Below are positions 13,270 to 25,411 of a stretch of 44,111 bases of DNA, one piece after another. Location of the stretch: the sequence record PZ379076.1. One strand, given 5' to 3'. Within the stretch, counting starts at the first letter, position 1. Each line of letters begins with the position of its first letter. The position numbers and the translations under genes were made by a program. The DNA is from a phage. The notes beneath the pieces are model-generated. The model was not told the DNA's origin, did not search any database, and saw only the letters and a list, made by a program, of their open reading frames with translations.

Positions 13270-13682
13270 TGGGCTACTTTGAGGACTTAACAAAAGCGTT
13301 TGATGTGCCGCTGGTAGCCTTCGGAACCACCAACGGCATCAAGGTAGCGCTTGAAAACATCGACGCGCCGACGTCAACAGATACGCCGTATCTGGCAAGT
13401 TACATGTTGCTGGCGGATACCGAGCAGGCTGACTTATTCTTCACGGAACAACGCGCCGGTGTCTATCAGATAGACATTAACTACGCATCGGTGAAAGGTA
13501 GCGCGCCAATCAATAAAATGGCAGACTTACTTAACACGGCGTTTAAATCAGGTAAGGCATTTTCGCGTAACGACATCTGCGCCGAGGTTCAATCGGTTAG
13601 CCTGGGGCCGCTGATTGTAGAAAACGGATGGGCCAAACGACCATTGTCAATTAACTTTATTGCATTCACCAAGAGGCTGTGA
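13266..13682 (+). CDS. hypothetical tail protein (tail terminator position)
   Basis: 138-aa ORF in track, ATGA overlap, directly before the major tail gene. Confidence 0.45.
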   Translation: MMGYFEDLTKAFDVPLVAFGTTNGIKVALENIDAPTSTDTPYLASYMLLADTEQADLFFTEQRAGVYQIDINYASVKGSAPINKMADLLNTAFKSGKAFSRNDICAEVQSVSLGPLIVENGWAKRPLSINFIAFTKRL

Positions 13683-13684
13683 AT

Positions 13685-14851
13685 ATGGCTACAACTCCTT
13701 TTAAGGGCGCGAATACCGCGCAATTCTATGTGGCGGAAACTACCCCGGGCGTAACACCGGCTAACCCTGTCTGGTCGCCGTTGCGTAACACTGGCGGTGT
13801 TCCTGCCGTAACCCGCGATGCGCTGACTTCCAACGAACTAGACGGCAGCCGTGAAACTACATCCATCCGAACCGGTAACAAACAGGTTAGCGGGGAGTAC
13901 GCCATCGAACTTAGCTCTCGTAGCCAGGATGATTTCCTTGCGGGAGCGATGACTTCTACGTGGCAAGCTGGGGTAGAGATTACTGGCGCCGAAATTACGG
14001 TCGCCCCAGCAGGTAAAACATTCACCCGCGCTGCCGGTAGCTTCATTACTGACGGTGTAGAAGTTGGCGACCTTATTGCGTTCACCGACTTAACCGGCGA
14101 CAACGCAAAACCGTTTATCGTGACCGCGGTTTCCGCTCTGGTAGTTACGGGCGCAGGTATTCAGCACACGCTGACAGCAGAGACAGTAACCACTGACGCA
14201 AAAACTGGCGACAAGCTGGAAACCGGTAACGCGTGTAAGACGTTCTCCATCCTGACGTGGTTCAAGGGCCAGTGTGGTAACCCGGACGCGTACATGCTGA
14301 CCAAAGGTGTGGAAATCTCTGGCTTTACCGTAGAGCAGGCGGTTAACGCCATGGTCACCGGCAGCTTCCCGTTCATCGGCCTGAGTCAGGAGATTCTTAC
14401 CGCGCCGCCGTCTGGCTCTGATTTCTCTCAGGTTACGTTCACCGATGAGCCGTTCTCGTCGGTAGATGTGTCGGTGTTCGATGGCTCCACGCCGTTGCGT
14501 TGCGATACTCTCACCATCACCAACGACAACGGAGCTTCCGCGCAGTTCGAACTCGGTAACAGTAGCGTGGCGTTCGTCGAACGTGGACGCGCAGCTAACA
14601 CATTCTCTATCTCTGGCAAGCTGTACGACATGGCGATGATTCAGAAGTTTATCAACGAGCAGCAGGTAGAGATTAACTCTATTCTGGCAGGGGTAAACGG
14701 GGCTATGTCTTTCAGTTTGAAACGTGCAGAGCTTACGGCGGTTACACCTGAGATTGGTGGGCCTGAGTCAATCACTCAGTCCATTGAAGGCCAGGCTACC
14801 GGCAATCAGTACCAGTCGTCTATCGTAATTCAACGTATCACCTACGCATAA
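13685..14851 (+). CDS. major tail protein (putative)
   Basis: ATG 13685 with AAGAGG SD inside track ORF 13679-14851; large Thr/Gly-rich protein upstream of chaperones and tape measure; followed by strong terminator. Confidence 0.6.
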   Translation: MATTPFKGANTAQFYVAETTPGVTPANPVWSPLRNTGGVPAVTRDALTSNELDGSRETTSIRTGNKQVSGEYAIELSSRSQDDFLAGAMTSTWQAGVEITGAEITVAPAGKTFTRAAGSFITDGVEVGDLIAFTDLTGDNAKPFIVTAVSALVVTGAGIQHTLTAETVTTDAKTGDKLETGNACKTFSILTWFKGQCGNPDAYMLTKGVEISGFTVEQAVNAMVTGSFPFIGLSQEILTAPPSGSDFSQVTFTDEPFSSVDVSVFDGSTPLRCDTLTITNDNGASAQFELGNSSVAFVERGRAANTFSISGKLYDMAMIQKFINEQQVEINSILAGVNGAMSFSLKRAELTAVTPEIGGPESITQSIEGQATGNQYQSSIVIQRITYA

Positions 14852-14856
14852 AACTA

Positions 14857-14880
14857 AGGCCCCTTTCGGGGCCTTTTTCT
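14857..14880. terminator. bidirectional rho-independent terminator
   Basis: Stem aggcccc (14857-14863) / ggggcct (14868-14874), loop tttc, T-run after it; sits between convergent genes. Confidence 0.75.
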
Positions 14881-15434
14881 TACAAACCTAATTTTAAAGC
14901 AATGTCTATAACGTTCGATTTAACGTCACCCGGTATGATGTAGGTGTCGTAATCTTTTACACCACTAACATCGTACAGATAGCCACGGCTATCGCAGATG
15001 AACGTATAGCCGTCACGATGGAGGCGGACGATTCGCACGTCATGCCCCGCGGCGACGATAGGGGCAACTTCACTGGCGAATCCACCATCGGACACTACAA
15101 AAACTTCGTCGCCGTCAGGCAAGTTTTCAGCAAGATACTTACCGAAATAATCATCGCCGAATACCGGTTTAATGAATTGCTCAGAAATGGCAATCATTAA
15201 CCGGCGGCGGGACAACCCATTAAGAAAACCCTCGGGTTTTTCTTTCCGCGCCCGGTCGTCGTAGCCGTCGAGAAATTCGTGGTAAGCATCCTGGCCTAAC
15301 GCTGCCAAAGCAATATTGAACATTGGGTTCTTGAAACTGGTAGTTCCTTTCGCAAAGCCCATTTCTACCAGCGCCATAGCAAGCGTGTCTTTCCCGCAAC
15401 CCGCAGGGCCATTAAGAATAATTACCTTAGCCAT
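14880..15434 (-). CDS. P-loop nucleotide kinase (dNMP-kinase-like)
   Basis: 184 aa; Walker A GPAGCGKDT, a GKDT-type P-loop as in T4 gp1-type dNMP kinases. Confidence 0.65.
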   Translation of the reverse strand: MAKVIILNGPAGCGKDTLAMALVEMGFAKGTTSFKNPMFNIALAALGQDAYHEFLDGYDDRARKEKPEGFLNGLSRRRLMIAISEQFIKPVFGDDYFGKYLAENLPDGDEVFVVSDGGFASEVAPIVAAGHDVRIVRLHRDGYTFICDSRGYLYDVSGVKDYDTYIIPGDVKSNVIDIALKLGL

Positions 15435-15922
15435 TATTTATCGCTCCCGTGTGGTTTTAAGTGTGTAGAGTTCCCGTTACAGTCGTATTCGGTAACTGCG
15501 TGTGCGGTTATGCCGAGGTCACGGAAATGCTTTATTACCGCTGGGGAGTCGTCGAACGCACACAAGATTCTTTCCAGTCCGAAAGCACGCAACACCTCTT
15601 CTTTAATTACGATGTCTTTTCTGTTGTCGTGTTTGCTGCGCATGATTAGCGTGTCAAACCTAACGTTATTCTCTCGTAACCATTCGCGAGTCTCCTCCTC
15701 AGCGTCATCACTTCGCCCGGTAAGGATAATTATAGTAAGTCCGGAATGCCACAGTACGCTACACAAATGGATATTGTCGTATATCGGAGCGTCATCTTTG
15801 CAGGCCATGTTAAATGGCTTCCACGCCCACGTTTCTCCGTAGTTATCTTTTGGTAACAGGTGTAAGCGATGGGTACCGTCGGCCAATGTCCCGTCTAAAT
15901 CGAAAATTACAATATCTTTCAT
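15434..15922 (-). CDS. HAD-superfamily phosphatase (nucleotidase or 3'-phosphatase-like)
   Basis: 162 aa; N-terminal IFDLDGTLADG is HAD motif I. Confidence 0.7.
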   Translation of the reverse strand: MKDIVIFDLDGTLADGTHRLHLLPKDNYGETWAWKPFNMACKDDAPIYDNIHLCSVLWHSGLTIIILTGRSDDAEEETREWLRENNVRFDTLIMRSKHDNRKDIVIKEEVLRAFGLERILCAFDDSPAVIKHFRDLGITAHAVTEYDCNGNSTHLKPHGSDK

Positions 15923-17049
15923 CCCAGCATCTCCGGTGAAATAGTTAAACGTGCGACCTCGCCATATTCGGCGCTATAAGTAATTACATTTGCACTGCGG
16001 CCCGACATCCATCCGCCGCGAGAGGCGTAGGCGTCTTTAGCCGCTAAGGTGCGGTGTTGCTCAACAATCATGTTACGGCTTTCTACAATCTTCTGGTGGT
16101 GCAGATGGCCTACGTGGGCGTAGCTGTAAACACTCTCGCCGAACGCTTTACGGAACTTGGCAATCATAACCGGTTCGATAGCGTCGAATCGTGCTTTATG
16201 CCCGTGATGGAAGAACAGCGTCGTTTTGCCGTGTTGCACCATCTTGTAAACATCCGGCGACGTATCGACGAACACGCGCGGCTCATTGTCGTACAGCGTA
16301 CTGAACATCTCAGCCAACCAAATCATACCCGATTCGTCGTGATTCCCTTGCACGATAAGCAAGCGAACATTTTTATGCTTAACCAACGCCATATCAACGA
16401 CACGGCGGACCATACGAATCATGTAACGGACCAGTTTCTGATAGCGCGTGTCAGCGTCAAGGACATGACCGCTTGCGGGCGTAACGGCATCAAGACTATC
16501 GAAGTGCGCTAAGTCGCCAAGAAGATTGATAACCCCAGTACCGGCATCCGGTGCTTTCTGGAATGCTGCATCGAACCAACGAGAGAACAGGTCTTCCGCA
16601 ATCTTCATGTCCCAGTCGTCGCCACTCTCGTCGGCCCAGGCCAGCATACCGAGATGGAAATCGGATACAGTGTAAAGATTGAGCAGCTTATCGTCCCGTT
16701 TGGCACGAACGGCTTTAACAGGTGCAACGGGCGTAATCTCCGATTTCATGCCTTCGATCACGGCTTTCATCAATTCAACCTGACGTTCGGCGTCAGTGTC
16801 GGTCTTAACCCATTGCAACTTAGTGTTGCCGAACTCATCCACCAGTGACGACGTACCTTTAATCTTATAGCCGTCCGGGACAAGGTGGCTAACATCACGT
16901 CCGTGACCTACACCTTTCTTAGCCAGCTTCGCTTTACGGATACGAATTACGCGGTCTGAGATGCCGTATTTACGGGCGATGTCTACATTCTTCATTCCGG
17001 CGTTCAATTCTTCCTGTAACTGTTCGTCGGTTATTTTCTTCCGGGCCAT
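15919..17049 (-). CDS. calcineurin-like metallophosphoesterase with N-terminal HTH-like segment
   Basis: 376 aa; metal-binding motifs VSDFHLG, GDLAHFD, GNHDE, GHLHH in canonical order; N-terminal ~45 aa basic helix-turn-helix-like. Confidence 0.7.
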   Translation of the reverse strand: MARKKITDEQLQEELNAGMKNVDIARKYGISDRVIRIRKAKLAKKGVGHGRDVSHLVPDGYKIKGTSSLVDEFGNTKLQWVKTDTDAERQVELMKAVIEGMKSEITPVAPVKAVRAKRDDKLLNLYTVSDFHLGMLAWADESGDDWDMKIAEDLFSRWFDAAFQKAPDAGTGVINLLGDLAHFDSLDAVTPASGHVLDADTRYQKLVRYMIRMVRRVVDMALVKHKNVRLLIVQGNHDESGMIWLAEMFSTLYDNEPRVFVDTSPDVYKMVQHGKTTLFFHHGHKARFDAIEPVMIAKFRKAFGESVYSYAHVGHLHHQKIVESRNMIVEQHRTLAAKDAYASRGGWMSGRSANVITYSAEYGEVARLTISPEMLG

Positions 17050-17087
17050 GCTTACTTCCTCGTGTTTAGGATTTGTCTTATAGTAGC

Positions 17088-17279
17088 CTACTTCTCTTTC
17101 ACGTTCGAGTTACAAGCCCAGATTAAAATGAATACCCACGGCAACAGAACCCACCCGAGAAATAAGTTAGCCATGAATATCGCTAGCTTTGCTTTATGGT
17201 TTCGCATATGGGCCACAAAAAACGGGATAAAATAAACGCCTACAACAATAATTAAAAAGAACATAGCGATACCGGTCAT
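17088..17279 (-). CDS. small two-helix membrane protein (superinfection-immunity-like, putative)
   Basis: ATG 17279 with AGGAG SD (track ORF opens at 17306); two hydrophobic helices around HMRNHKAKLAIFMANLFLGW. Confidence 0.4.
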   Translation of the reverse strand: MTGIAMFFLIIVVGVYFIPFFVAHMRNHKAKLAIFMANLFLGWVLLPWVFILIWACNSNVKEK

Positions 17280-17321
17280 AACATAACTCCTGATTTGAGA
17301 TAACATCGTTGGTGTAAGTGA

Positions 17322-17350: not shown

Positions 17351-17457
17351 GTAGTATGTTAGAATAATTTTGCGCCTAGTGTCGCACACGAAAAGCGGGT
17401 GGTTCCCGTCTGGCGCATTTCCTTTAACCAGTAACCTCTTAACCAAAGGATTAAAGA

Positions 17458-17874
17458 ATGAAACTTTCTGATTTTTATTACGAAGCTGAAGCTGAAAAGG
17501 GTGCACGTATGCCGATACCATTAAAAGACGGTACCGATTCCGGGGAATGGCTTAATGTTGTTTCTCCTGAGGCAGACGTTGCCGTTAAGGCTATGCGCGC
17601 GTTCACCCTTGCATACCGGGCAGTGTTAGGGAAATTAAAACCGCTTCGTGATAAGTGCGAAGAGATGAAAGATTTCTCTGAATACAACCTGAAGATGGAA
17701 GACGCGGCGACGGACCTTAACCGTCAGTTAGCGGTTGAATTGGTTAACGGGTGGAGCCTTGACGACGAATTCAATAAAGAGAATCTGAACACACTCCTGA
17801 CGCAATATAAACGACTCGCGGAACTTGTTGTTGTGTTTCATAACGAACAACTGCACCAGCTACAGGAAAAGTAG
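17458..17874 (+). CDS. tail assembly chaperone (putative, G-like)
   Basis: 138 aa immediately upstream of the tape measure gene; AAAGGA SD. Confidence 0.5.
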   Translation: MKLSDFYYEAEAEKGARMPIPLKDGTDSGEWLNVVSPEADVAVKAMRAFTLAYRAVLGKLKPLRDKCEEMKDFSEYNLKMEDAATDLNRQLAVELVNGWSLDDEFNKENLNTLLTQYKRLAELVVVFHNEQLHQLQEK

Positions 17875-17879
17875 ACGCG

Positions 17880-18239
17880 TTGCTCCAGTTCGCCCGTTGG
17901 AACTTCATAACCCGCCACAAACGGCGGGAATTTGACAGTATCGCCGATGGGCATAAAGCCGCGCTAATTGCTATGGGGGTTATGCAAGACGCGCCGGACG
18001 CAACGCAGGCCACTGGGCCGGAATGCCCCCCTGAACTACTAACCACATTTGAGAAGTACAGGGAAATTAAATTCACCCGCCGAGTGGACGACGACGGCAT
18101 CAAGATGTACCCGCGCGAGCAATTACGATGGTCAGATTTAGTGGCGTACAGCACCGTTTCAGGCCAGAATATAGGGATGTTCGAATCTGACATCATCATG
18201 AGCTTAGACGCTATTTTCGAGGGTAGAAACGATGGCTGA
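17880..18239 (+). CDS. possible -1 frameshift extension of the tail assembly chaperone (T-like)
   Basis: -1 frame open from 17844, overlapping the last 10 codons of 17458-17874 which end ...CAG GAA AAG TAG; track ORF opens on TTG. Confidence 0.3.
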   Translation: MLQFARWNFITRHKRREFDSIADGHKAALIAMGVMQDAPDATQATGPECPPELLTTFEKYREIKFTRRVDDDGIKMYPREQLRWSDLVAYSTVSGQNIGMFESDIIMSLDAIFEGRNDG

Positions 18240-19647
18240 TGTAGCTAGTTTAGTCGTAAAAGTATCAGAGCAAGGCGCGAAAGCCACATCAGACCGTCTT
18301 GATAATCTTTCAAAGTCCGCAAAAGTAGCGGGGGCCGCCGTAGCAGGCCTCGCTTCTATCGTAGCGGCTACCGCGTATAAAGCCGCCCAAGAACTAGTTG
18401 ACTCACAGCGGCAACTGGACAAGATGTCCGCCAGTTTGAAGACCTTAACCGGAAGTACCCAAGGTGCTAAACAGGCGCTAAGTATCCTGCAAGATTTTGC
18501 ACGCGACACCCCATACGGACTGGAGCAGGCGGTGGAAGGCTTCCGTAAGCTGGTGGCCCTTGGCCTTACCCCATCCGAGGAGGCGTTGCGGTCCTACGGC
18601 AATACCGCATCGGCTATGGGTAAGGACCTTAATCAGATGATTGAGGCGGTAGCCGACGCCAGTACGTTTGAGTTCGAACGCCTCAAAGAATTCGGCATCA
18701 AAGCCAAGCAGAACAAAACCGACGTAGAGTTTACGTTCCAGGGAACGACAACCGTAGTTAAGAAAAGCGCTGCCGATATTGAGCAGTATTTACTTAACAT
18801 TGGTAACGTAAATTTTGCGGGGGCTATGGCTGACCAGGCCAACACCCTTAACGGCGCTATCGCGAGTGCCAGTGACTCATGGTCGCAGCTAAAAATGACG
18901 CTTGCCACCAGTCTTGATGTTGGCGCACTTGCTGAACCTATCAGGTATATCGATGACTTGATTCAGGAATTAAACGCGTCTGTTGCTTCCGGTGAATTAG
19001 CCGCTGAAATGCAGATGTGGGGGAACATCGCGTCGGAAGTAGGAAGCGCTATCGAGATGTCATTCGACGCTGCGTTTGGCTTTGTTGGCGATGCCATCAA
19101 CGGGCTTAATGAACTGTGGGATTTCAGCAGCAAGAGTATTACGGATAGCGGAGAACAAACGGCTACTACCATCGCTGAATCCGCCGCCGATGCGCTTGAC
19201 TTCATCGCGGAAGAGTTCACCGCGATGGAGAGATTCTTTGAAGATATGGTTAAAGGCGCGCAGGACGCGGGCCGTCTTGTACGAGCCGCTTTTACCCCCG
19301 GGGAATCAGTAGACGTAGCTAAAAATATCAACTTCCAGCTTGGCCTGGCTTTGGATACCCAGCGCGATGTCGCCGACGTTACGCGTAAAAGTTTCCGCGA
19401 ACAGGTAGAAGCTCAACAGGATATTGTAGCGTTAAAACGCGCGGCGTATGACATCGATAAGGAGTCCGCAAAAGCTGAGGGGTTAAACAAATTTAAGGTA
19501 ACCGGAACTGGCGGCGGTTCTGACGATGACGGGTCAGCCGCAAAAGCCGCTAAGAAAGCGGCGGACGCGTTCGAGCGCCAGAAAAAGCGGCGGAAGACTT
19601 CTACTATCAGTCAATCCATCTTAATGATGACGTATTTCAGAAAATAG
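18232..19647 (+). CDS. tail tape measure protein, N-terminal ~470 codons (frame broken near 19580)
   Basis: Long Ala/Gln/Glu-rich helical ORF after chaperone genes; ends 20 codons after an A5 run. Confidence 0.7.
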   Translation: MADVASLVVKVSEQGAKATSDRLDNLSKSAKVAGAAVAGLASIVAATAYKAAQELVDSQRQLDKMSASLKTLTGSTQGAKQALSILQDFARDTPYGLEQAVEGFRKLVALGLTPSEEALRSYGNTASAMGKDLNQMIEAVADASTFEFERLKEFGIKAKQNKTDVEFTFQGTTTVVKKSAADIEQYLLNIGNVNFAGAMADQANTLNGAIASASDSWSQLKMTLATSLDVGALAEPIRYIDDLIQELNASVASGELAAEMQMWGNIASEVGSAIEMSFDAAFGFVGDAINGLNELWDFSSKSITDSGEQTATTIAESAADALDFIAEEFTAMERFFEDMVKGAQDAGRLVRAAFTPGESVDVAKNINFQLGLALDTQRDVADVTRKSFREQVEAQQDIVALKRAAYDIDKESAKAEGLNKFKVTGTGGGSDDDGSAAKAAKKAADAFERQKKRRKTSTISQSILMMTYFRK

Positions 19648-20570
19648 AAGCTAACCAGGAAGAGCAACTGTCTAAGTTGCAGGACTTCTATAGCAATAAG
19701 CTTCTTAGCGACCAACAGTACGAAAACGCCAAGACGCAGATTATGTTATCCGCGGAACAGGCCCGCCAGGAAGAACTGGATAAGAAAAGGAAGGAGGCCC
19801 AGGAGAATCGGCAGAAAGGCGAGGATTTCATGGCTCAGATTATGGGTCAGAACGCCACCGAGCTTGAGCTTCTGGATATTCAGGAACAGCAGAAACTGGC
19901 AGTAGCCGATAAGTACCGTGAACAGGGTCTTATTAGCGAGAAGCAGTATCAGGCCACGCTTAACGCCATCAACGAGCAGTACGCAACCAAGCGAGCCGAT
20001 GCAACGGCAACCGCTTTCGGCAACATGGCGTCCAATATTGGGTCCGCGTTAGGGGAGGCATCCGGGGCTTATAAGGCGTTCGCTATTGTACAGGCCACGA
20101 TAGCCACGTACACCGCAGCTATTGAGGCGTACAAGTCAACGGCTGCTATCCCTGTTGTTGGCCCGTTCCTGGCCCCTGTAGCCGCTGCCGCTGCCGTTGG
20201 GGCTGGTATGGCGCAGATTTCCGCTATCAGGTCCGCGCGTGAACAGGGCGGTCAGTTATCAGCCGGGCAGGCTTCTACCATCGCTGAACGCGGTAAACCA
20301 GAAGTTATCATGCCCGCTGGCGCGTCGCGTGTACGCACAGCACAGCAGATGAAAGAAATTATGGGGCAAAACGGGTCTTCTTCCGGCCCGTCTAATGTTA
20401 CCATCGTAAACAACACGAGTTCTCAAATCGGCAACGTATCCACTGAGCAAGATGATGAAGGCCGTTTGCGAATCATCATCGAGGAGCAGGTGGCTGCCTC
20501 TTTGCAGAACAGCAACAGCAAGATTAGCAAGGCCCGCAAAGCCACAAGAAATGCGCCGGGGTTTAAATAA
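19554..20570 (+). CDS. tail tape measure protein, C-terminal part in the -1 frame
   Basis: -1 frame opens at 19554 and continues with the same composition to 20570 (track ORF 19677-20570); one extra A in the run at 19582-19586 would fuse both parts. Confidence 0.6.
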   Translation, partial: ESGGRVRAPEKAAEDFYYQSIHLNDDVFQKIEANQEEQLSKLQDFYSNKLLSDQQYENAKTQIMLSAEQARQEELDKKRKEAQENRQKGEDFMAQIMGQNATELELLDIQEQQKLAVADKYREQGLISEKQYQATLNAINEQYATKRADATATAFGNMASNIGSALGEASGAYKAFAIVQATIATYTAAIEAYKSTAAIPVVGPFLAPVAAAAAVGAGMAQISAIRSAREQGGQLSAGQASTIAERGKPEVIMPAGASRVRTAQQMKEIMGQNGSSSGPSNVTIVNNTSSQIGNVSTEQDDEGRLRIIIEEQVAASLQNSNSKISKARKATRNAPGFK

Positions 20571-22492: not shown

Positions 22493-22854
22493 ATATTAAC
22501 GACTACACGGGAATACCTTACGACTTTCGCAAACGTAATTGCTGGCATCACGTGCGCATTGTCCGCGCGGATGCCGGGTTAGAAACCCCAGCGTTCGACG
22601 TTGCAAGTCCAACGGCGATTAACGAAGCGTTCGACGAAGGACATCGCAACACGAAGGGACTTACAAAAATTGATAAGCCTGAAAACTTCTGTGCGGTGCT
22701 TATGGGGTATCGCCGCGGCGGTCGTATCGTGTGGCACGCAGGAGTTTACTTCGACGGGATGGTGAGCCATTGCGAGCTTGCTTCCCGTCAGGTACGGCTT
22801 GACAGGCTGGCGGATCTCAGAGACACGTACACGGAGATTGAATTTTGGCGATAA
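22489..22854 (+). CDS. tail assembly protein (gpK position, possible Cys/His peptidase)
   Basis: 121 aa; conserved Cys-His (NCWHH) near the N-terminus and His-Cys (SHCE) near the C-terminus; ATGA overlap. Confidence 0.4.
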   Translation: MNINDYTGIPYDFRKRNCWHHVRIVRADAGLETPAFDVASPTAINEAFDEGHRNTKGLTKIDKPENFCAVLMGYRRGGRIVWHAGVYFDGMVSHCELASRQVRLDRLADLRDTYTEIEFWR

Positions 22855-24332
22855 TCCTGCACTACACGCGAAACGCTGATGGCGCTTTCAACCGTACAAA
22901 ACACGTCGGGATGCCGATGGAGTTTGTCGTTAACCGTATCCCGGACGGCGTTCCGGTACGCGTCTATCTTGGCGAGATTGGTGATGATACTGATGTTACA
23001 GACGACTTCGACGCGCTCAAAGACGAGGACGCCGTGTACCACATTATTGAGGGCGCTGGCGGCGGCATTGGCGACGCCATCGGGAGTGTATTCAGTTTCA
23101 TCCTTAAGCCAATCGCCAAATTGTTCGGGCTAAACACAGCGGCTAACGCTAATTATTCCGCTACCAACAATCAGGCTACGTCGCCTAACAACAGTCTCAC
23201 CGACCGCTCAAACAAGCCACGACCTTATGAGCGTTCCTATGATATCTGCGGGACAGTGCAGACCATCCCCAATGACCTGATGCAGACATATAAGGTGTTT
23301 AATGCCGCGGGTGCGCTTATTGAATATGCGTACTATGACGCCGGTCGAGGGTATCTGCATATTGAGGAAGACGGTGTAACGGAGGCGGATACCCGAATCA
23401 GCGAGATAACTGGCTCGTCGGTGACGGTGTATCCCCCTTATACTTCGCCAAATAATACCAGCACCCCACAATTGCATATCGGCGACCCTATAGACCAGAA
23501 ATTGTACGTTACATTTAAAAACGCCGATGTCGATGGCGCTGTTCTTCCCGCACCTAATGACATCGCTATAGACGTGCAGGACTACACTGTCCAGCGGCAG
23601 GGAACAACAGGTGTTGTAATAGGCGATGACGCTGGTTTCGATGAGTTTTTGGCTGTCGGGGACCTGGCATATTTCGATAACGTATATGCGGACACAACTC
23701 CTGGGTCTTTAGGTAATGAGGTTAACTTAGACGGGAGGTACACTGTTCTTTCGGTTAGTGAAACCACCATTATTGTGGACGTCAGTACAAATCAATCAGT
23801 ATGGAACCAGCTAGGGGCGTCTGTGTGGTTTATAGGTGAAGAGGGTAACCATCTTATAGGCCCGGCGGACACTTACGCGGCTTCTCTCTCTGAATGGGCG
23901 TACATCACCCGCGGTACTGTCGACCGTGTTGTAGCCAATGTCGCCGCCAGCAACGGCATGTACAAATACAACGGCGACTATAACCGCGCTTCAGTGACAG
24001 TCGAACTGCAATACCAGATGGTAGATGAATTGAAACAGCCTGTAGGTGACATATTTACCGTACGAGGAACCGTAACAGGCCGGAACACGGATTACACAGG
24101 GATTACTCTTTACGGAAGTTTACCAACTGCTTCCAGATTCCGCGCCCGTATGCGTCGTGTTTCGGACACCGATAAAGATTTTGAAGGTACTGTTAGCGAC
24201 GAGGTTACTTTCACTAATCTGTATGGGCAGTCGCTGGACACAACCCCCACTACGGCAACCGTACTACCGTACACTGCGCCCGTAAACAAACCCCACGTGC
24301 AGCCGAGGTGTCCGAACCGGAACTGCGCATGA
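22845..24332 (+). CDS. tail tip protein with gpI-like N-terminal region
   Basis: 495 aa (TTG start in track); glycine-rich hydrophobic segment GAGGGIGDAIGSVFSFILKPIAKLFG as in lambda I-type proteins. Confidence 0.5.
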   Translation: MAIILHYTRNADGAFNRTKHVGMPMEFVVNRIPDGVPVRVYLGEIGDDTDVTDDFDALKDEDAVYHIIEGAGGGIGDAIGSVFSFILKPIAKLFGLNTAANANYSATNNQATSPNNSLTDRSNKPRPYERSYDICGTVQTIPNDLMQTYKVFNAAGALIEYAYYDAGRGYLHIEEDGVTEADTRISEITGSSVTVYPPYTSPNNTSTPQLHIGDPIDQKLYVTFKNADVDGAVLPAPNDIAIDVQDYTVQRQGTTGVVIGDDAGFDEFLAVGDLAYFDNVYADTTPGSLGNEVNLDGRYTVLSVSETTIIVDVSTNQSVWNQLGASVWFIGEEGNHLIGPADTYAASLSEWAYITRGTVDRVVANVAASNGMYKYNGDYNRASVTVELQYQMVDELKQPVGDIFTVRGTVTGRNTDYTGITLYGSLPTASRFRARMRRVSDTDKDFEGTVSDEVTFTNLYGQSLDTTPTTATVLPYTAPVNKPHVQPRCPNRNCA

Positions 24333-25411
24333 TTGCAACCGAGATGTGCTACAAATACTTAGGTAACGGCGTATTCGATACGGTAATGACACCGAACACT
24401 CAGGCCGTGCAGTCGCTAATCAGGCTGGCGCGTGACCCTGTGGTGGGTAATCTGGAACTGACAACGGCAAATATGGACAAGTTACTTGCCGTGCAGGAAG
24501 AAATTGAGTCGTATTTTGACAGTGAATTAGCCGGGCAGTTCTGCTACACATTCGACGACTACGACACAACCATGCAAGACATCGTTCAGACCATCGCGGA
24601 AGCCGTGTTTTGTACGGCATACCGTAAAGGTGCTGATATTATGCTGCGATTCGACCGTCCTGTTGCGGGGCCTGAGATGGTTTTCACCCACCGCAGCAAA
24701 ACGACCGGTACGGAGAAATGGACGCGCACGTTCAACGATTCGACAACCTACGATAGCCTGTCGTTCTCGTACATTGACCCGGATACAAACGTACAGGAGA
24801 CGATTTATATCCCGGAAGAACTCGGCGCGAACACCGAGGAGTACGAATCGAAGGGTGTACGTAACTATCAGCAAGCGTACTGGCTGGCGTGGCGTCGCTA
24901 CCAGCGCAACACGTTAAGTAAAGTTGTCGTAGAGTTCGAAGCTACCGAAGAAGGCGCTCTCGCTACTCCCGGCGGCGTAATCAGTGTGGTTAAAGGCTCG
25001 CGTATCGCGCCGCAGGATGGTTATGTTGTTGCCGTCAATGGCCTTACGCTGACGCTGTCTCAGCCTGTTACGTTTACTCCTGGTGATGACCATTCCATCA
25101 TCCTCAAGAAGCGCGACGGCTCTGTGCAGAGTATTTCTGTTATCAAAGGAAGCCACGACCGCGAAGTGATTATGCTCTCCGCGCCGGAGGAGGCAATCTA
25201 CACGGGGAATAGCGCACTAAAAACTGAGTTTTCATTCGGCAACGAAGCAAGGCATAATGCTCAGAAGATAGTTGTTTCTTCAATCGACCCCGGCGACGAC
25301 CGCACGGTCAAGATTACTGGTTACAACTATGACGACGGATTCTATAAATACGACGGCGTCGCGCCATACGGCAGCAGCTTCTCCGACGGATTCAGCAATG
25401 GTTTTAATTAA
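24329..25411 (+). CDS. tail tip / host specificity region protein (hypothetical)
   Basis: ATG 24329 overlaps the upstream TGA (ATGA); track ORF 24308-25411 opens on GTG. Confidence 0.5.
   Translation: MIATEMCYKYLGNGVFDTVMTPNTQAVQSLIRLARDPVVGNLELTTANMDKLLAVQEEIESYFDSELAGQFCYTFDDYDTTMQDIVQTIAEAVFCTAYRKGADIMLRFDRPVAGPEMVFTHRSKTTGTEKWTRTFNDSTTYDSLSFSYIDPDTNVQETIYIPEELGANTEEYESKGVRNYQQAYWLAWRRYQRNTLSKVVVEFEATEEGALATPGGVISVVKGSRIAPQDGYVVAVNGLTLTLSQPVTFTPGDDHSIILKKRDGSVQSISVIKGSHDREVIMLSAPEEAIYTGNSALKTEFSFGNEARHNAQKIVVSSIDPGDDRTVKITGYNYDDGFYKYDGVAPYGSSFSDGFSNGFN

What the first reader, a model, noticed from the sequence alone, without database searches (positions are those of the whole stretch)
17844..17874. 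Possible -1 frameshift joining the two ORFs upstream of the tape measure gene
The second ORF's frame opens at 17844 and overlaps the last ten codons of the first, which end ...CAG GAA AAG TAG; GGAAAAG resembles but does not match known GGGAAAG / AAAAAAG slippery heptamers. A chaperone pair made by frameshifting is the rule in siphovirus tail modules, so the arrangement is suggestive, but the site is non-canonical.
Basis: partly seen in the sequence, partly recalled or inferred. Interest (0 to 1): 0.35.

Follow-up and report, generated by a model that had tools for sequence, protein, structure and literature searches.

The report
Tail chaperone frameshift at A_AAG-stop
The two small genes ahead of the tape measure gene of this E. 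coli phage are almost certainly joined by a programmed backward ribosome slip, as in phage lambda, but on a minimal A_AAG site directly before the stop codon rather than a textbook slippery heptamer; it is an expected feature that is already annotated in sister phages.

Summary
ORF1 (17458..17874, Pfam Phage_TAC_4) ends CAG GAA AAG TAG. The -1 frame opens at 17844 and runs to 18239 (Pfam Phage_TAC_18), ending at the tape measure start.

The window is a Kagunavirus, 98% identical to phage Golestan. In 84 distinct relatives (23 clusters below 85% nt identity; ORF1 down to 42% aa identity) ORF1 always ends NNA_AAG + TAG/TAA.
- The preceding codon varies: GAA, GCA, GTA, GGA (canonical G_GGA_AAG in RP180) and AAA (A_AAA_AAG).
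- In two relatives the -1 frame opens only 7 nt before the stop.
- Protein conservation in the -1 frame starts at the slip (K|V-x-A-L...).
- The first possible ORF2 start lies 3 to 108 codons downstream in different relatives.

The window's TTG at 17880 is CTG in 21 of 23 clusters, and its SD is weak. GenBank/RefSeq already carry this exact ...LQEK|VDALL... fusion for fFiEco03/fPoEco01, although the Shashou paper reported 'no canonical slippery sequence'.

Best reading: lambda G/GT-type -1 frameshift by tRNA-Lys slipping on A_AAG, possibly helped by the adjacent stop. No conserved downstream RNA structure was found. An invariant GCG YTG just 3' is unexplained.

Ordinary in kind, mildly unusual in signal.

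The parts
17458..17874 (+). ORF1, the gpG-like tail assembly chaperone (138 aa). It is the product of normal translation and terminates at TAG 17872-17874.
   Evidence: ORF list. Pfam Phage_TAC_4 E 9e-8. phrog_15027 positions 1-138 and phrog_313. AAGGA Shine-Dalgarno 8 nt upstream of the ATG.
17865..17871 (+). Shift site G_GAA_AAG. The conserved core is A_AAG (17868-17871).
   Evidence: Only Z_ZZN motif in the 17844-17871 shift window. NNA_AAG is invariant in 84 distinct relatives and 23 clusters; codon 138 is AAG in 23/23 clusters against 37% AAG elsewhere; codon 137 is always NNA although the amino acid varies E/A/V/G/K. In L073 and L074 the -1 frame opens only 7 nt before the stop.
17872..17874 (+). 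TAG stop of ORF1, directly abutting the shift codon. It is a candidate 'shifty stop' pause element.
   Evidence: The stop is always the codon after AAG. It is TAG or TAA and never TGA, although TGA would also give Val in the -1 frame. The next base is always A or C. TAG is the rarest stop in the window, 6 of 56. Any stimulatory role is inferred.
17871..18239 (+). The -1 frame segment (gpT-like, 122 codons from GTA 17871 to TGA 18237-18239), translated as the C-terminal half of a 260-aa fusion (17458..17871 joined to 17871..18239).
   Evidence: Pfam Phage_TAC_18 E 2e-18. phrog_15027 positions 136-259 are contiguous with ORF1. The fused length is 256-260 aa in all relatives, with no alignment gap at the junction and an invariant K-V-x-A-L. 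An identical junction is annotated in QNO11663.1/YP_010748927.1.
17844..17870 (+). Upstream part of the -1 frame overlap. It is open in this phage but probably not translated in the -1 frame.
   Evidence: Overlap length varies from 7 to 205 nt among relatives, and -1-frame stops fall anywhere upstream of the slip site.
17877..17882 (+). GCG TTG (Ala-Leu in the -1 frame): a nucleotide-invariant 3' context of unknown role. TTG 17880-17882 is also the start codon that most GenBank annotations use for a separate ORF2.
   Evidence: Ala codon 141 is GCG in 23/23 clusters and Leu 142 is always YTG (21 CTG, 2 TTG). Only 4 of 83 conserved-aa columns lack synonymous variation, and three of them are codons 138, 139 and 141. 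SD-like AGGA at 17864-17867 lies 12 nt upstream, -4.3 kcal/mol.
17877..17964 (+). Predicted clade-specific RNA structure starting 5 nt after the heptamer. It is not conserved in the family and its role is doubtful.
   Evidence: MFE -37 kcal/mol, z -2.96. The family consensus structure is essentially nil, -0.27 kcal/mol. The 5'-anchored pairing energy in the window is 5.2 against 2.5 +/- 1.9 kcal/mol at control positions (top 9%), but the family median percentile is 0.32.
18232..20570 (+). Tape measure gene immediately downstream. Its ATG overlaps the ORF2 stop. It is split in this window by a 1-nt deletion.
   Evidence: Pfam TMP_3, and phrog_1538 covers both halves. It is a single 2340-nt CDS in Golestan. 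The indel is located.

Best explanation
The feature is a lambda G/GT-type programmed -1 ribosomal frameshift in the tail assembly chaperone genes of a Kagunavirus.

Most ribosomes translate ORF1 and terminate at TAG 17872, giving the 138-aa G-like chaperone. A minority slip back one base while tRNA-Lys is on AAG (17869-17871). The tRNA re-pairs with AAA (17868-17870), using the final A of the preceding GAA codon. Translation then reads GTA GAC GCG TTG... in the -1 frame to 18239. The product is a 260-aa G-T fusion, ...LHQLQEK|VDALLQFARWNF....

By analogy with lambda, the G part of both proteins coats the tape measure protein and the T part recruits the tail tube protein. The low slip frequency sets the G:GT ratio.

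The signal is the minimal NNA_AAG hexanucleotide type, not a tandem-slippage heptamer. The stop codon that always follows it probably prolongs the pause.

Shown here: the anatomy, the family-wide conservation of the site, of the frame arrangement and of the junction peptide, and the lack of a conserved ORF2 start.

Inferred: that slippage actually occurs, its efficiency, which ribosomal site the tRNA occupies when it slips, the role of the stop codon, and the chaperone function.
For: 1. Gene identity and position: Pfam Phage_TAC_4, then Phage_TAC_18, then the tape measure gene.
2. phrog_15027 (259 positions) aligns to ORF1 at 1-138 and to ORF2 at 136-259, so it is built from fused proteins.
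3. All 84 distinct relatives (ORF1 42-100% aa identity, 23 clusters below 85% nt identity) end ORF1 with NNA_AAG + TAG/TAA. Counts among the first 79 distinct sequences: GGAAAAG 58, CGCAAAG 8, AGCAAAG 5, GGTAAAG 4, AAAAAAG 2, GGGAAAG 1, GGCAAAG 1.
4. RP180 has the canonical G_GGA_AAG where its near-identical siblings have G_GAA_AAG.
5. In L073 and L074 the -1 frame is open for only 7 nt before the stop, which pins the shift to GCA_AAG.
6. Synonymous sites are frozen only at the site. Of 83 conserved-aa columns, only K138 AAG, V139 GTA, A141 GCG and the C-terminal Gly that overlaps the tape measure start show no synonymous variation.
7. The -1-frame protein is conserved from the first post-slip codon, with no gaps. 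The first ATG/GTG/TTG in ORF2 lies 3, 4, 10, 12, 31, 32, 34, 50, 57, 94 or 108 codons downstream in different relatives. Gene callers accordingly emit truncated 87-aa ORF2s in the K1H clade.
8. GenBank/RefSeq annotate exactly this junction as a 'frameshift product' in fFiEco03, fPoEco01 and fFiEco02.
9. A_AAG is an established -1 shift site in E. coli. NNA_AAG hexanucleotides are used by IS1222, with efficiency depending on the tRNA that reads the 5' codon (PMC5009743).
Against: - There is no experimental evidence for any member of this phage group. Tail chaperones are not in virions, so virion proteomics would not show the fusion.
- The heptamer is not X_XXY_YYZ. The Shashou genome paper (90% identical region) reported 'no canonical slippery sequence' and left ORF2 as a separate hypothetical protein (PMC6776780).
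- In this clade a TTG lies 5 nt after the stop, with a weak AGGA 12 nt upstream, so free T protein made by coupled re-initiation cannot be excluded.
- No conserved downstream stimulatory RNA structure was found, and no Rfam frameshift element matched.
- The related sequences are phylogenetically linked, so counts overstate independence. I reduced this by using 23 clusters below 85% nt identity.
Confidence: 0.85

Rival explanations
1. There is no frameshift. ORF2 is a separate 119-aa protein initiated at TTG 17880, either by the AGGA at 17864-17867 or by termination-reinitiation after the ORF1 stop 5 nt upstream.
For: A TTG is present in the window and in the whole Golestan/Shashou/Jerseyvirus clade. 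RefSeq and CPT annotations use it and mark an RBS. Stop-to-start proximity favours coupling (general knowledge).
Against: The codon is CTG in 21 of 23 clusters, and it encodes a conserved Leu in the K-V-x-A-L motif. In other clades the first start is 10 to 108 codons into conserved sequence. The SD is weak (-4.3 against a median of -6.1 kcal/mol) and 12 nt away. The model does not explain the invariant A_AAG, the frozen synonymous sites or the always-adjacent stop. In lambda, T acts only when fused to G (PMC5009743).
Confidence: 0.08
2. The frameshift occurs, but by classical tandem slippage on the full heptamer G_GAA_AAG. The P-site tRNA-Glu re-pairs on GGA (G.U at the middle position) together with A-site tRNA-Lys, so the heptamer rather than A_AAG is the functional unit.
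For: 58 of 79 distinct sequences have GGAAAAG. The first base is G and re-pairing on GGA is partly possible. RP180 and L083/L086 have true heptamers at this position. Intermediates such as G_GA or G_GU at the X_XX positions are known elsewhere (PMC5009743).
Against: Sixteen distinct sequences in several clusters have C_GCA_AAG, A_GCA_AAG or G_GTA_AAG, where the 5' tRNA cannot re-pair in the -1 frame, yet the arrangement is otherwise identical. The only invariant bases are A_AAG.
Confidence: 0.1
3. The frame break is a sequencing or assembly error, or a pseudogene, and the true gene is a single in-frame ORF.
For: This window does carry two 1-nt deletions at homopolymer-type contexts that split essential tail genes (tape measure and tail tip protein) relative to Golestan.
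Against: The same two-frame arrangement, with the stop codon in place, is present in all 84 distinct sequences from independent isolates and metagenomes.
Confidence: 0.01
4. The fusion is made by transcriptional slippage of RNA polymerase on the A run, not by the ribosome.
For: An A4 run is present. Transcriptional slippage is used in some phage and IS genes (PMC5009743, title and abstract seen).
Against: A4 is far shorter than the runs known to give useful slippage (own knowledge). Many relatives have only A3 (GCAAAG, GTAAAG) with the same architecture. Transcriptional slippage would also not require AAG specifically, nor an adjacent stop.
Confidence: 0.02

Closest known systems
Phage lambda G/GT tail assembly chaperone frameshift (Levin, Hendrix and Casjens 1993; Xu, Hendrix and Duda 2004, 2013, 2014; as summarised in PMC5009743)
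   Same: Two overlapping ORFs lie directly upstream of the tape measure gene, with the second in the -1 frame. [quoted passage not shown] The products would be a short chaperone and a rarer long fusion, and the arrangement is conserved across related phages.
   Different: Lambda uses the canonical G_GGA_AAG. Here the heptamer is G_GAA_AAG, and only A_AAG is conserved in the family. The stop codon abuts the shift codon in every member; my recollection is that in lambda it lies a few codons downstream. The proteins belong to other Pfam families (Phage_TAC_4 and Phage_TAC_18). A block of reverse-strand genes separates the tail tube gene from the chaperone genes.
Annotated frameshift products of sister Kagunaviruses (fFiEco03 QNO11663.1/YP_010748927.1, fPoEco01 YP_010749081.1, fFiEco02 YP_010749005.1) and PHROG 15027
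   Same: Same genes and same shift site, with GGAAAAG followed directly by a stop (TAG in fFiEco03/fPoEco01; TAA in fFiEco02). The junction is ...EK|V... (LQEK|VDALL in fFiEco03/fPoEco01, LSEK|VKALY in fFiEco02), and the fusion is 259-260 aa.
   Different: These are database annotations without experiment. Most other records of the group (Golestan, SE2, Ent1, Shashou) annotate two separate genes. The window's own fusion sequence is not in the protein collection.
Hexanucleotide NNA_AAG -1 frameshifting (IS1222 G_CGA_AAG; B. subtilis cdd A_CGA_AAG; synthetic constructs), per PMC5009743
   Same: Single tRNA-Lys slippage from AAG to AAA, with no requirement for re-pairing of the 5' tRNA. The 5' codons found here (GAA, GCA, GTA, GGA, AAA) all end in A and, from my knowledge of E. 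coli tRNAs, are read by U34-modified tRNAs. That is the type reported to favour such shifts.
   Different: As I recall, IS1222 uses a downstream stem-loop stimulator. No conserved structure was found here. This one is a phage structural-gene case with an adjacent stop.
E. coli dnaX A_AAA_AAG frameshift
   Same: -1 slip of tRNA-Lys on ..A_AAG. Two relatives (L083, L086) carry the identical heptamer.
   Different: dnaX depends on an upstream internal SD and a downstream hairpin and shifts at about 50% (my recollection). Neither element is conserved here, and a low efficiency is expected.

Membership tests
G/GT-type tail assembly chaperone with programmed frameshift (Xu et al. 2004) | Pair of ORFs located immediately upstream of the tape measure gene in the tail module | tested here: met
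   ORF1 is 17458..17874, ORF2 runs to 18239, and the tape measure ATG is at 18232. The tail tube gene (13679..14851, Phage_tube_2) lies upstream but is separated by reverse-strand genes at 14880..17306.
G/GT-type tail assembly chaperone with programmed frameshift (Xu et al. 2004) | Second ORF overlaps the first in another frame and has no conserved initiation site of its own | tested here: met
   The second ORF is in the -1 frame with a 31-nt overlap. The first possible start varies from codon 3 to codon 108 among relatives, and TTG 17880 is CTG in 21 of 23 clusters.
G/GT-type tail assembly chaperone with programmed frameshift (Xu et al. 2004) | Canonical slippery heptamer X_XXY_YYZ in the overlap | tested here: not met
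   The window has G_GAA_AAG. Only 3 of 79 distinct relatives have true heptamers (GGGAAAG, AAAAAAG). The minimal Z_ZZN motif A_AAG is present and invariant.
G/GT-type tail assembly chaperone with programmed frameshift (Xu et al. 2004) | Arrangement and shift site conserved among diverged relatives | tested here: met
   84 distinct sequences and 23 clusters; synonymous sites are frozen at codons 138, 139 and 141.
G/GT-type tail assembly chaperone with programmed frameshift (Xu et al. 2004) | Fusion protein made at a low fixed ratio and required for tail assembly | not testable with these tools
   Needs expression, mass spectrometry or genetics.
Pfam Phage_TAC_4 / Phage_TAC_18 | Score above the curated gathering threshold | tested here: met
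   ORF1 scores 32.8 bits against a cutoff of 21.1. ORF2 scores 66.7 bits against a cutoff of 27.
NNA_AAG hexanucleotide -1 frameshift sites (IS1222 type) | In-frame A_AAG, with the 5' codon not required to re-pair | tested here: met
   A_AAG is invariant while the 5' codon varies: GAA, GCA, GTA, GGA, AAA.
NNA_AAG hexanucleotide -1 frameshift sites (IS1222 type) | Downstream stimulatory stem-loop | tested here: inconclusive
   The window folds well (z -2.96), but there is no family consensus structure and no excess 5'-anchored stability over control positions.
dnaX-type frameshift signal | Internal SD about 10 nt upstream plus a conserved downstream hairpin | tested here: not met
   Upstream sequence is not conserved (CTACAG, CTCTCG, CTTAAC, CTTGCA). 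There is no conserved hairpin and no Rfam match to any frameshift element.
'Shifty stop' frameshifting (Weiss et al. 1987) | Stop codon immediately 3' of the slippery codon | tested here: met
   TAG or TAA follows AAG in every relative, TGA never occurs, and the next base is always A or C. Whether it stimulates the shift is not testable here.

The most novel reading that the evidence does not exclude
Guernseyvirinae tail chaperone genes may use a distinct, family-wide -1 signal made of the minimal A_AAG tetranucleotide, an obligatorily adjacent UAG/UAA stop in a weak (A/C) context, and an invariant GCG-YUG element 6-11 nt downstream, with no heptamer and no conserved RNA structure. That would be a natural 'shifty-stop' type of -1 programmed frameshift with a possible new short 3' stimulator. 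It would also explain why annotators disagree over whether these phages frameshift at all.
Probability: 0.3. Interest if true: 0.45.

Novelty: new member of a known kind. Interest (0 to 1): 0.25.

Why it matters
Practically, this settles an annotation disagreement. Records for Golestan, SE2, Ent1 and Shashou, like most hits in the search, list ORF2 as a separate or hypothetical protein. Gene callers truncate it to 87 aa in one clade. One paper stated that there is no slippery sequence. The comparative data show the fusion should be annotated as join(17458..17871,17871..18239).

Scientifically, the family is a clean natural series for asking how much of a -1 signal is needed. The invariant part is A_AAG + stop + GCG YUG, while the 5' codon varies freely. 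It also allows a test of whether an adjacent stop can replace a downstream structure.

It does not change what is known about tail assembly.

Tried and rejected
- **Conserved downstream stimulatory RNA.** RNAalifold on 59 sequences gave only 3 pairs at -0.27 kcal/mol. A test of 5'-anchored pairing energy against about 230 control positions per sequence in 23 representatives gave a mean of 3.6 against 2.6 kcal/mol and a median percentile of 0.32. The window's own fold (z -2.96) is therefore treated as clade-specific and unproven. A 50-nt local hairpin is no better than shuffles.
- **Rfam.** No frameshift element matched at E up to 10.
- **Literature.** A search for the string GGAAAAG returned only primers and unrelated papers. 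No paper on frameshifting in Kagunavirus or Jerseyvirus was found. Anany et al. 2015 is not held. The fEg-Eco19 paper does not mention the topic.
- **Solved structures.** A profile search with the ORF1 alignment found nothing significant (best E 0.11).
- **Wider family.** A second scan anchored on the most divergent member added only seven loci, all with the same site.
- **Other shift sites in the overlap.** There are none.
- **Not done.** The large protein searches were not spent, because they could not change the verdict.

Full report
**What is there**

The window is a Kagunavirus (Guernseyvirinae). The 901-nt query (window 17400-18300) spanning ORF1, ORF2 and the start of the tape measure gene is 98.3% identical to Escherichia phage Golestan. 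It matches 387 phage records, mostly Escherichia Kagunavirus and Salmonella Jerseyvirus.

- ORF1 (17458..17874, 138 aa) matches Pfam Phage_TAC_4.
- The -1 frame open from 17844 to 18239 matches Phage_TAC_18.
- The next gene is the tape measure protein.
- ORF1 ends CTA CAG GAA AAG TAG, and the -1 frame reads ...ACA GGA AAA GTA GAC GCG TTG....

A_AAG (17868-17871) is the only in-frame slip-capable motif inside the 17844-17871 shift window.

**Is it a frameshift or two genes?**

Public annotation is split.
- Golestan, SE2, Ent1 and Shashou annotate ORF2 separately from the TTG that corresponds to window 17880.
- fFiEco02 and fFiEco03 carry a two-piece CDS labelled 'frameshift product'.
- An exact-sequence look-up shows that the deposited proteins QNO11663.1/YP_010748927.1 (fFiEco03), QNO11812.1/YP_010749081.1 (fPoEco01) and QNO11587.1 (fFiEco02) have the junction ...EK|V... 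that an A_AAG slip predicts, not ...GK|V....
- PHROG 15027 is a 259-position profile. It aligns to ORF1 at 1-138 and to ORF2 at 136-259, so it is built from fused proteins.

**Comparative test**

I collected 104 loci from IMG/VR and GenBank. They give 84 distinct ORF1-ORF2 sequences in 23 clusters below 85% nt identity, with ORF1 identity to the window down to 42%.

- Every one ends ORF1 with NNA_AAG followed directly by TAG or TAA.
- Among the first 79 distinct sequences the heptamers are GGAAAAG 58, CGCAAAG 8, AGCAAAG 5, GGTAAAG 4, AAAAAAG 2, GGGAAAG 1 and GGCAAAG 1. The seven later loci are the same.
- The canonical heptamers occur at the same position. Raoultella phage RP180 has G_GGA_AAG where its close siblings have G_GAA_AAG.
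- In L073 and L074 a -1-frame TAA lies 10 nt before the ORF1 stop, so the -1 frame is open for only 7 nt (C_GCA_AAG). This confines the shift to that site.

The fused protein is 256-260 aa in all of them and aligns without a gap across the junction, with K-V-x-A-L invariant. The conserved segment VxALxxFAxWxFVxxxxxxFDxIxxGHxAAL follows immediately.

The first ATG/GTG/TTG in the -1 frame lies 3, 4, 10, 12, 31, 32, 34, 50, 57, 94 or 108 codons after the slip in different clades. Without a frameshift, conserved sequence would go untranslated. Automatic gene calls of 87 aa in the K1H clade show exactly that.

**Nucleotide-level signature**

I used one representative per cluster. Of 83 alignment columns with a conserved, degenerate amino acid, only four show no synonymous variation:
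- K138, always AAG (Lys codons elsewhere are 37% AAG);
- V139, always GTA;
- A141, always GCG (37% elsewhere);
- the C-terminal Gly that overlaps the tape measure start.

In addition:
- Codon 137 changes amino acid (E, A, V, G, K) but always ends in A.
- L142 is always YTG.
- The stop is never TGA, although GTG would keep Val in the -1 frame.
- The base after the stop is always A or C.
- TAG is the rarest stop in the window, 6 of 56 crude ORFs, and ORF1 is the only ORF ending A_AAG + stop.

**Mechanism**

The conserved unit matches the established E. coli -1 site A_AAG. On it the single tRNA-Lys, which pairs poorly with AAG, re-pairs on AAA. NNA_AAG hexanucleotides are used naturally by IS1222, and their efficiency depends on the tRNA reading the 5' codon (PMC5009743).

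The 5' codon here need not re-pair: GCA and GTA variants exist. I therefore favour single-tRNA slippage over tandem slippage. For GGAAAAG itself, partial re-pairing of tRNA-Glu on GGA is possible.

The invariant adjacent stop suggests a 'shifty stop' pause. This is inference.

No family-wide downstream structure exists, and pairing energy at the site is not above control positions. The window's own predicted fold starts 5 nt after the heptamer and has z = -2.96, but it is not conserved. No Rfam frameshift element matches. The invariance of GCG YTG at 17877-17882 is unexplained.

Function follows the lambda model, in which G and GT bind the tape measure protein and T recruits the tube protein (PMC5009743). 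That function is inferred from homology and position only.

**Rivals**

- *Independent initiation at TTG 17880.* It cannot be excluded as an additional route in this clade. Against it, the SD is weak and distant (-4.3 against a median of -6.1 kcal/mol, 12 nt), the codon is CTG in 21 of 23 clusters, and the model explains none of the frozen sites.
- *Sequencing error.* The conservation excludes it, even though this window does contain two likely errors elsewhere.
- *Transcriptional slippage.* It is unlikely on A3 or A4 runs.

**Verdict**

This is an expected G/GT-type chaperone frameshift. It is already annotated in a few sister genomes and captured by a PHROG, but it is not described in any paper I could find. 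Its signal is a minimal A_AAG-plus-stop rather than a textbook heptamer.

- Confidence that the fusion is made: 0.85.
- Novelty: new member of a known kind.
- Interest: 0.25.

Noticed in passing
window 19579-19590 (tape measure gene 18232..20570): The tape measure gene is split into 18232..19647 and 19677..20570 by a 1-nt deletion. The window has CAGAAAAAGCGG, its closest relatives (L004, L005) have CAGAAAAAAGCGG, and Golestan has CAGAAAAAGGCGG. It is most likely a homopolymer sequencing error. Curiously, a -1 slip on the in-frame AAA_AAG there would restore the exact wild-type peptide QKKAAE.
   Followed up: yes
window about 24240-24250 (tail protein 22845..25411): The J-like tail tip protein is a single 2568-nt CDS in Golestan (gp29). 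In the window it is split into 22845..24332 and 24308..25411 by a 1-nt deletion next to a C run: ACAACCCCCACTACGG against ACAACCCCGCACTACGG. A second probable assembly error suggests the window comes from an error-prone read technology.
   Followed up: yes
window 17369-17433 (+): This is the only Rfam match at gathering score in the whole window: int-alpA RNA (RF02996), 36.6 bits against a gathering score of 35.8, covering the full model. It lies in the divergent intergenic region 25 nt upstream of the chaperone start codon. The stretch 17400-17480 stays 91-95% identical even in Kagunaviruses whose chaperone gene has diverged (H95-H99). Its role is unknown.
   Followed up: partly
window 17877-17882: GCG YTG, 6-11 nt after the shift site, is nucleotide-invariant across 23 sequence clusters although both codons are degenerate. 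No conserved pairing partner was found.
   Followed up: partly
window 14880-17306 (- strand): A block of reverse-strand genes lies between the tail tube gene and the chaperone genes, interrupting the usual tube-chaperone-tape measure order. In relatives these genes are annotated as a dNMP kinase-like protein, polynucleotide kinase, metallophosphoesterase/'DNA repair exonuclease', and a superinfection immunity protein. The block is conserved in Golestan and Shashou.
   Followed up: no
L017, L061-L075 clade (K1H-like Kagunaviruses): Public gene calls for ORF2 in this clade are mostly an 87-aa truncated protein, seen on hundreds of contigs. The truncation drops about 34 conserved residues because the frameshift is not modelled.
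   Followed up: partly
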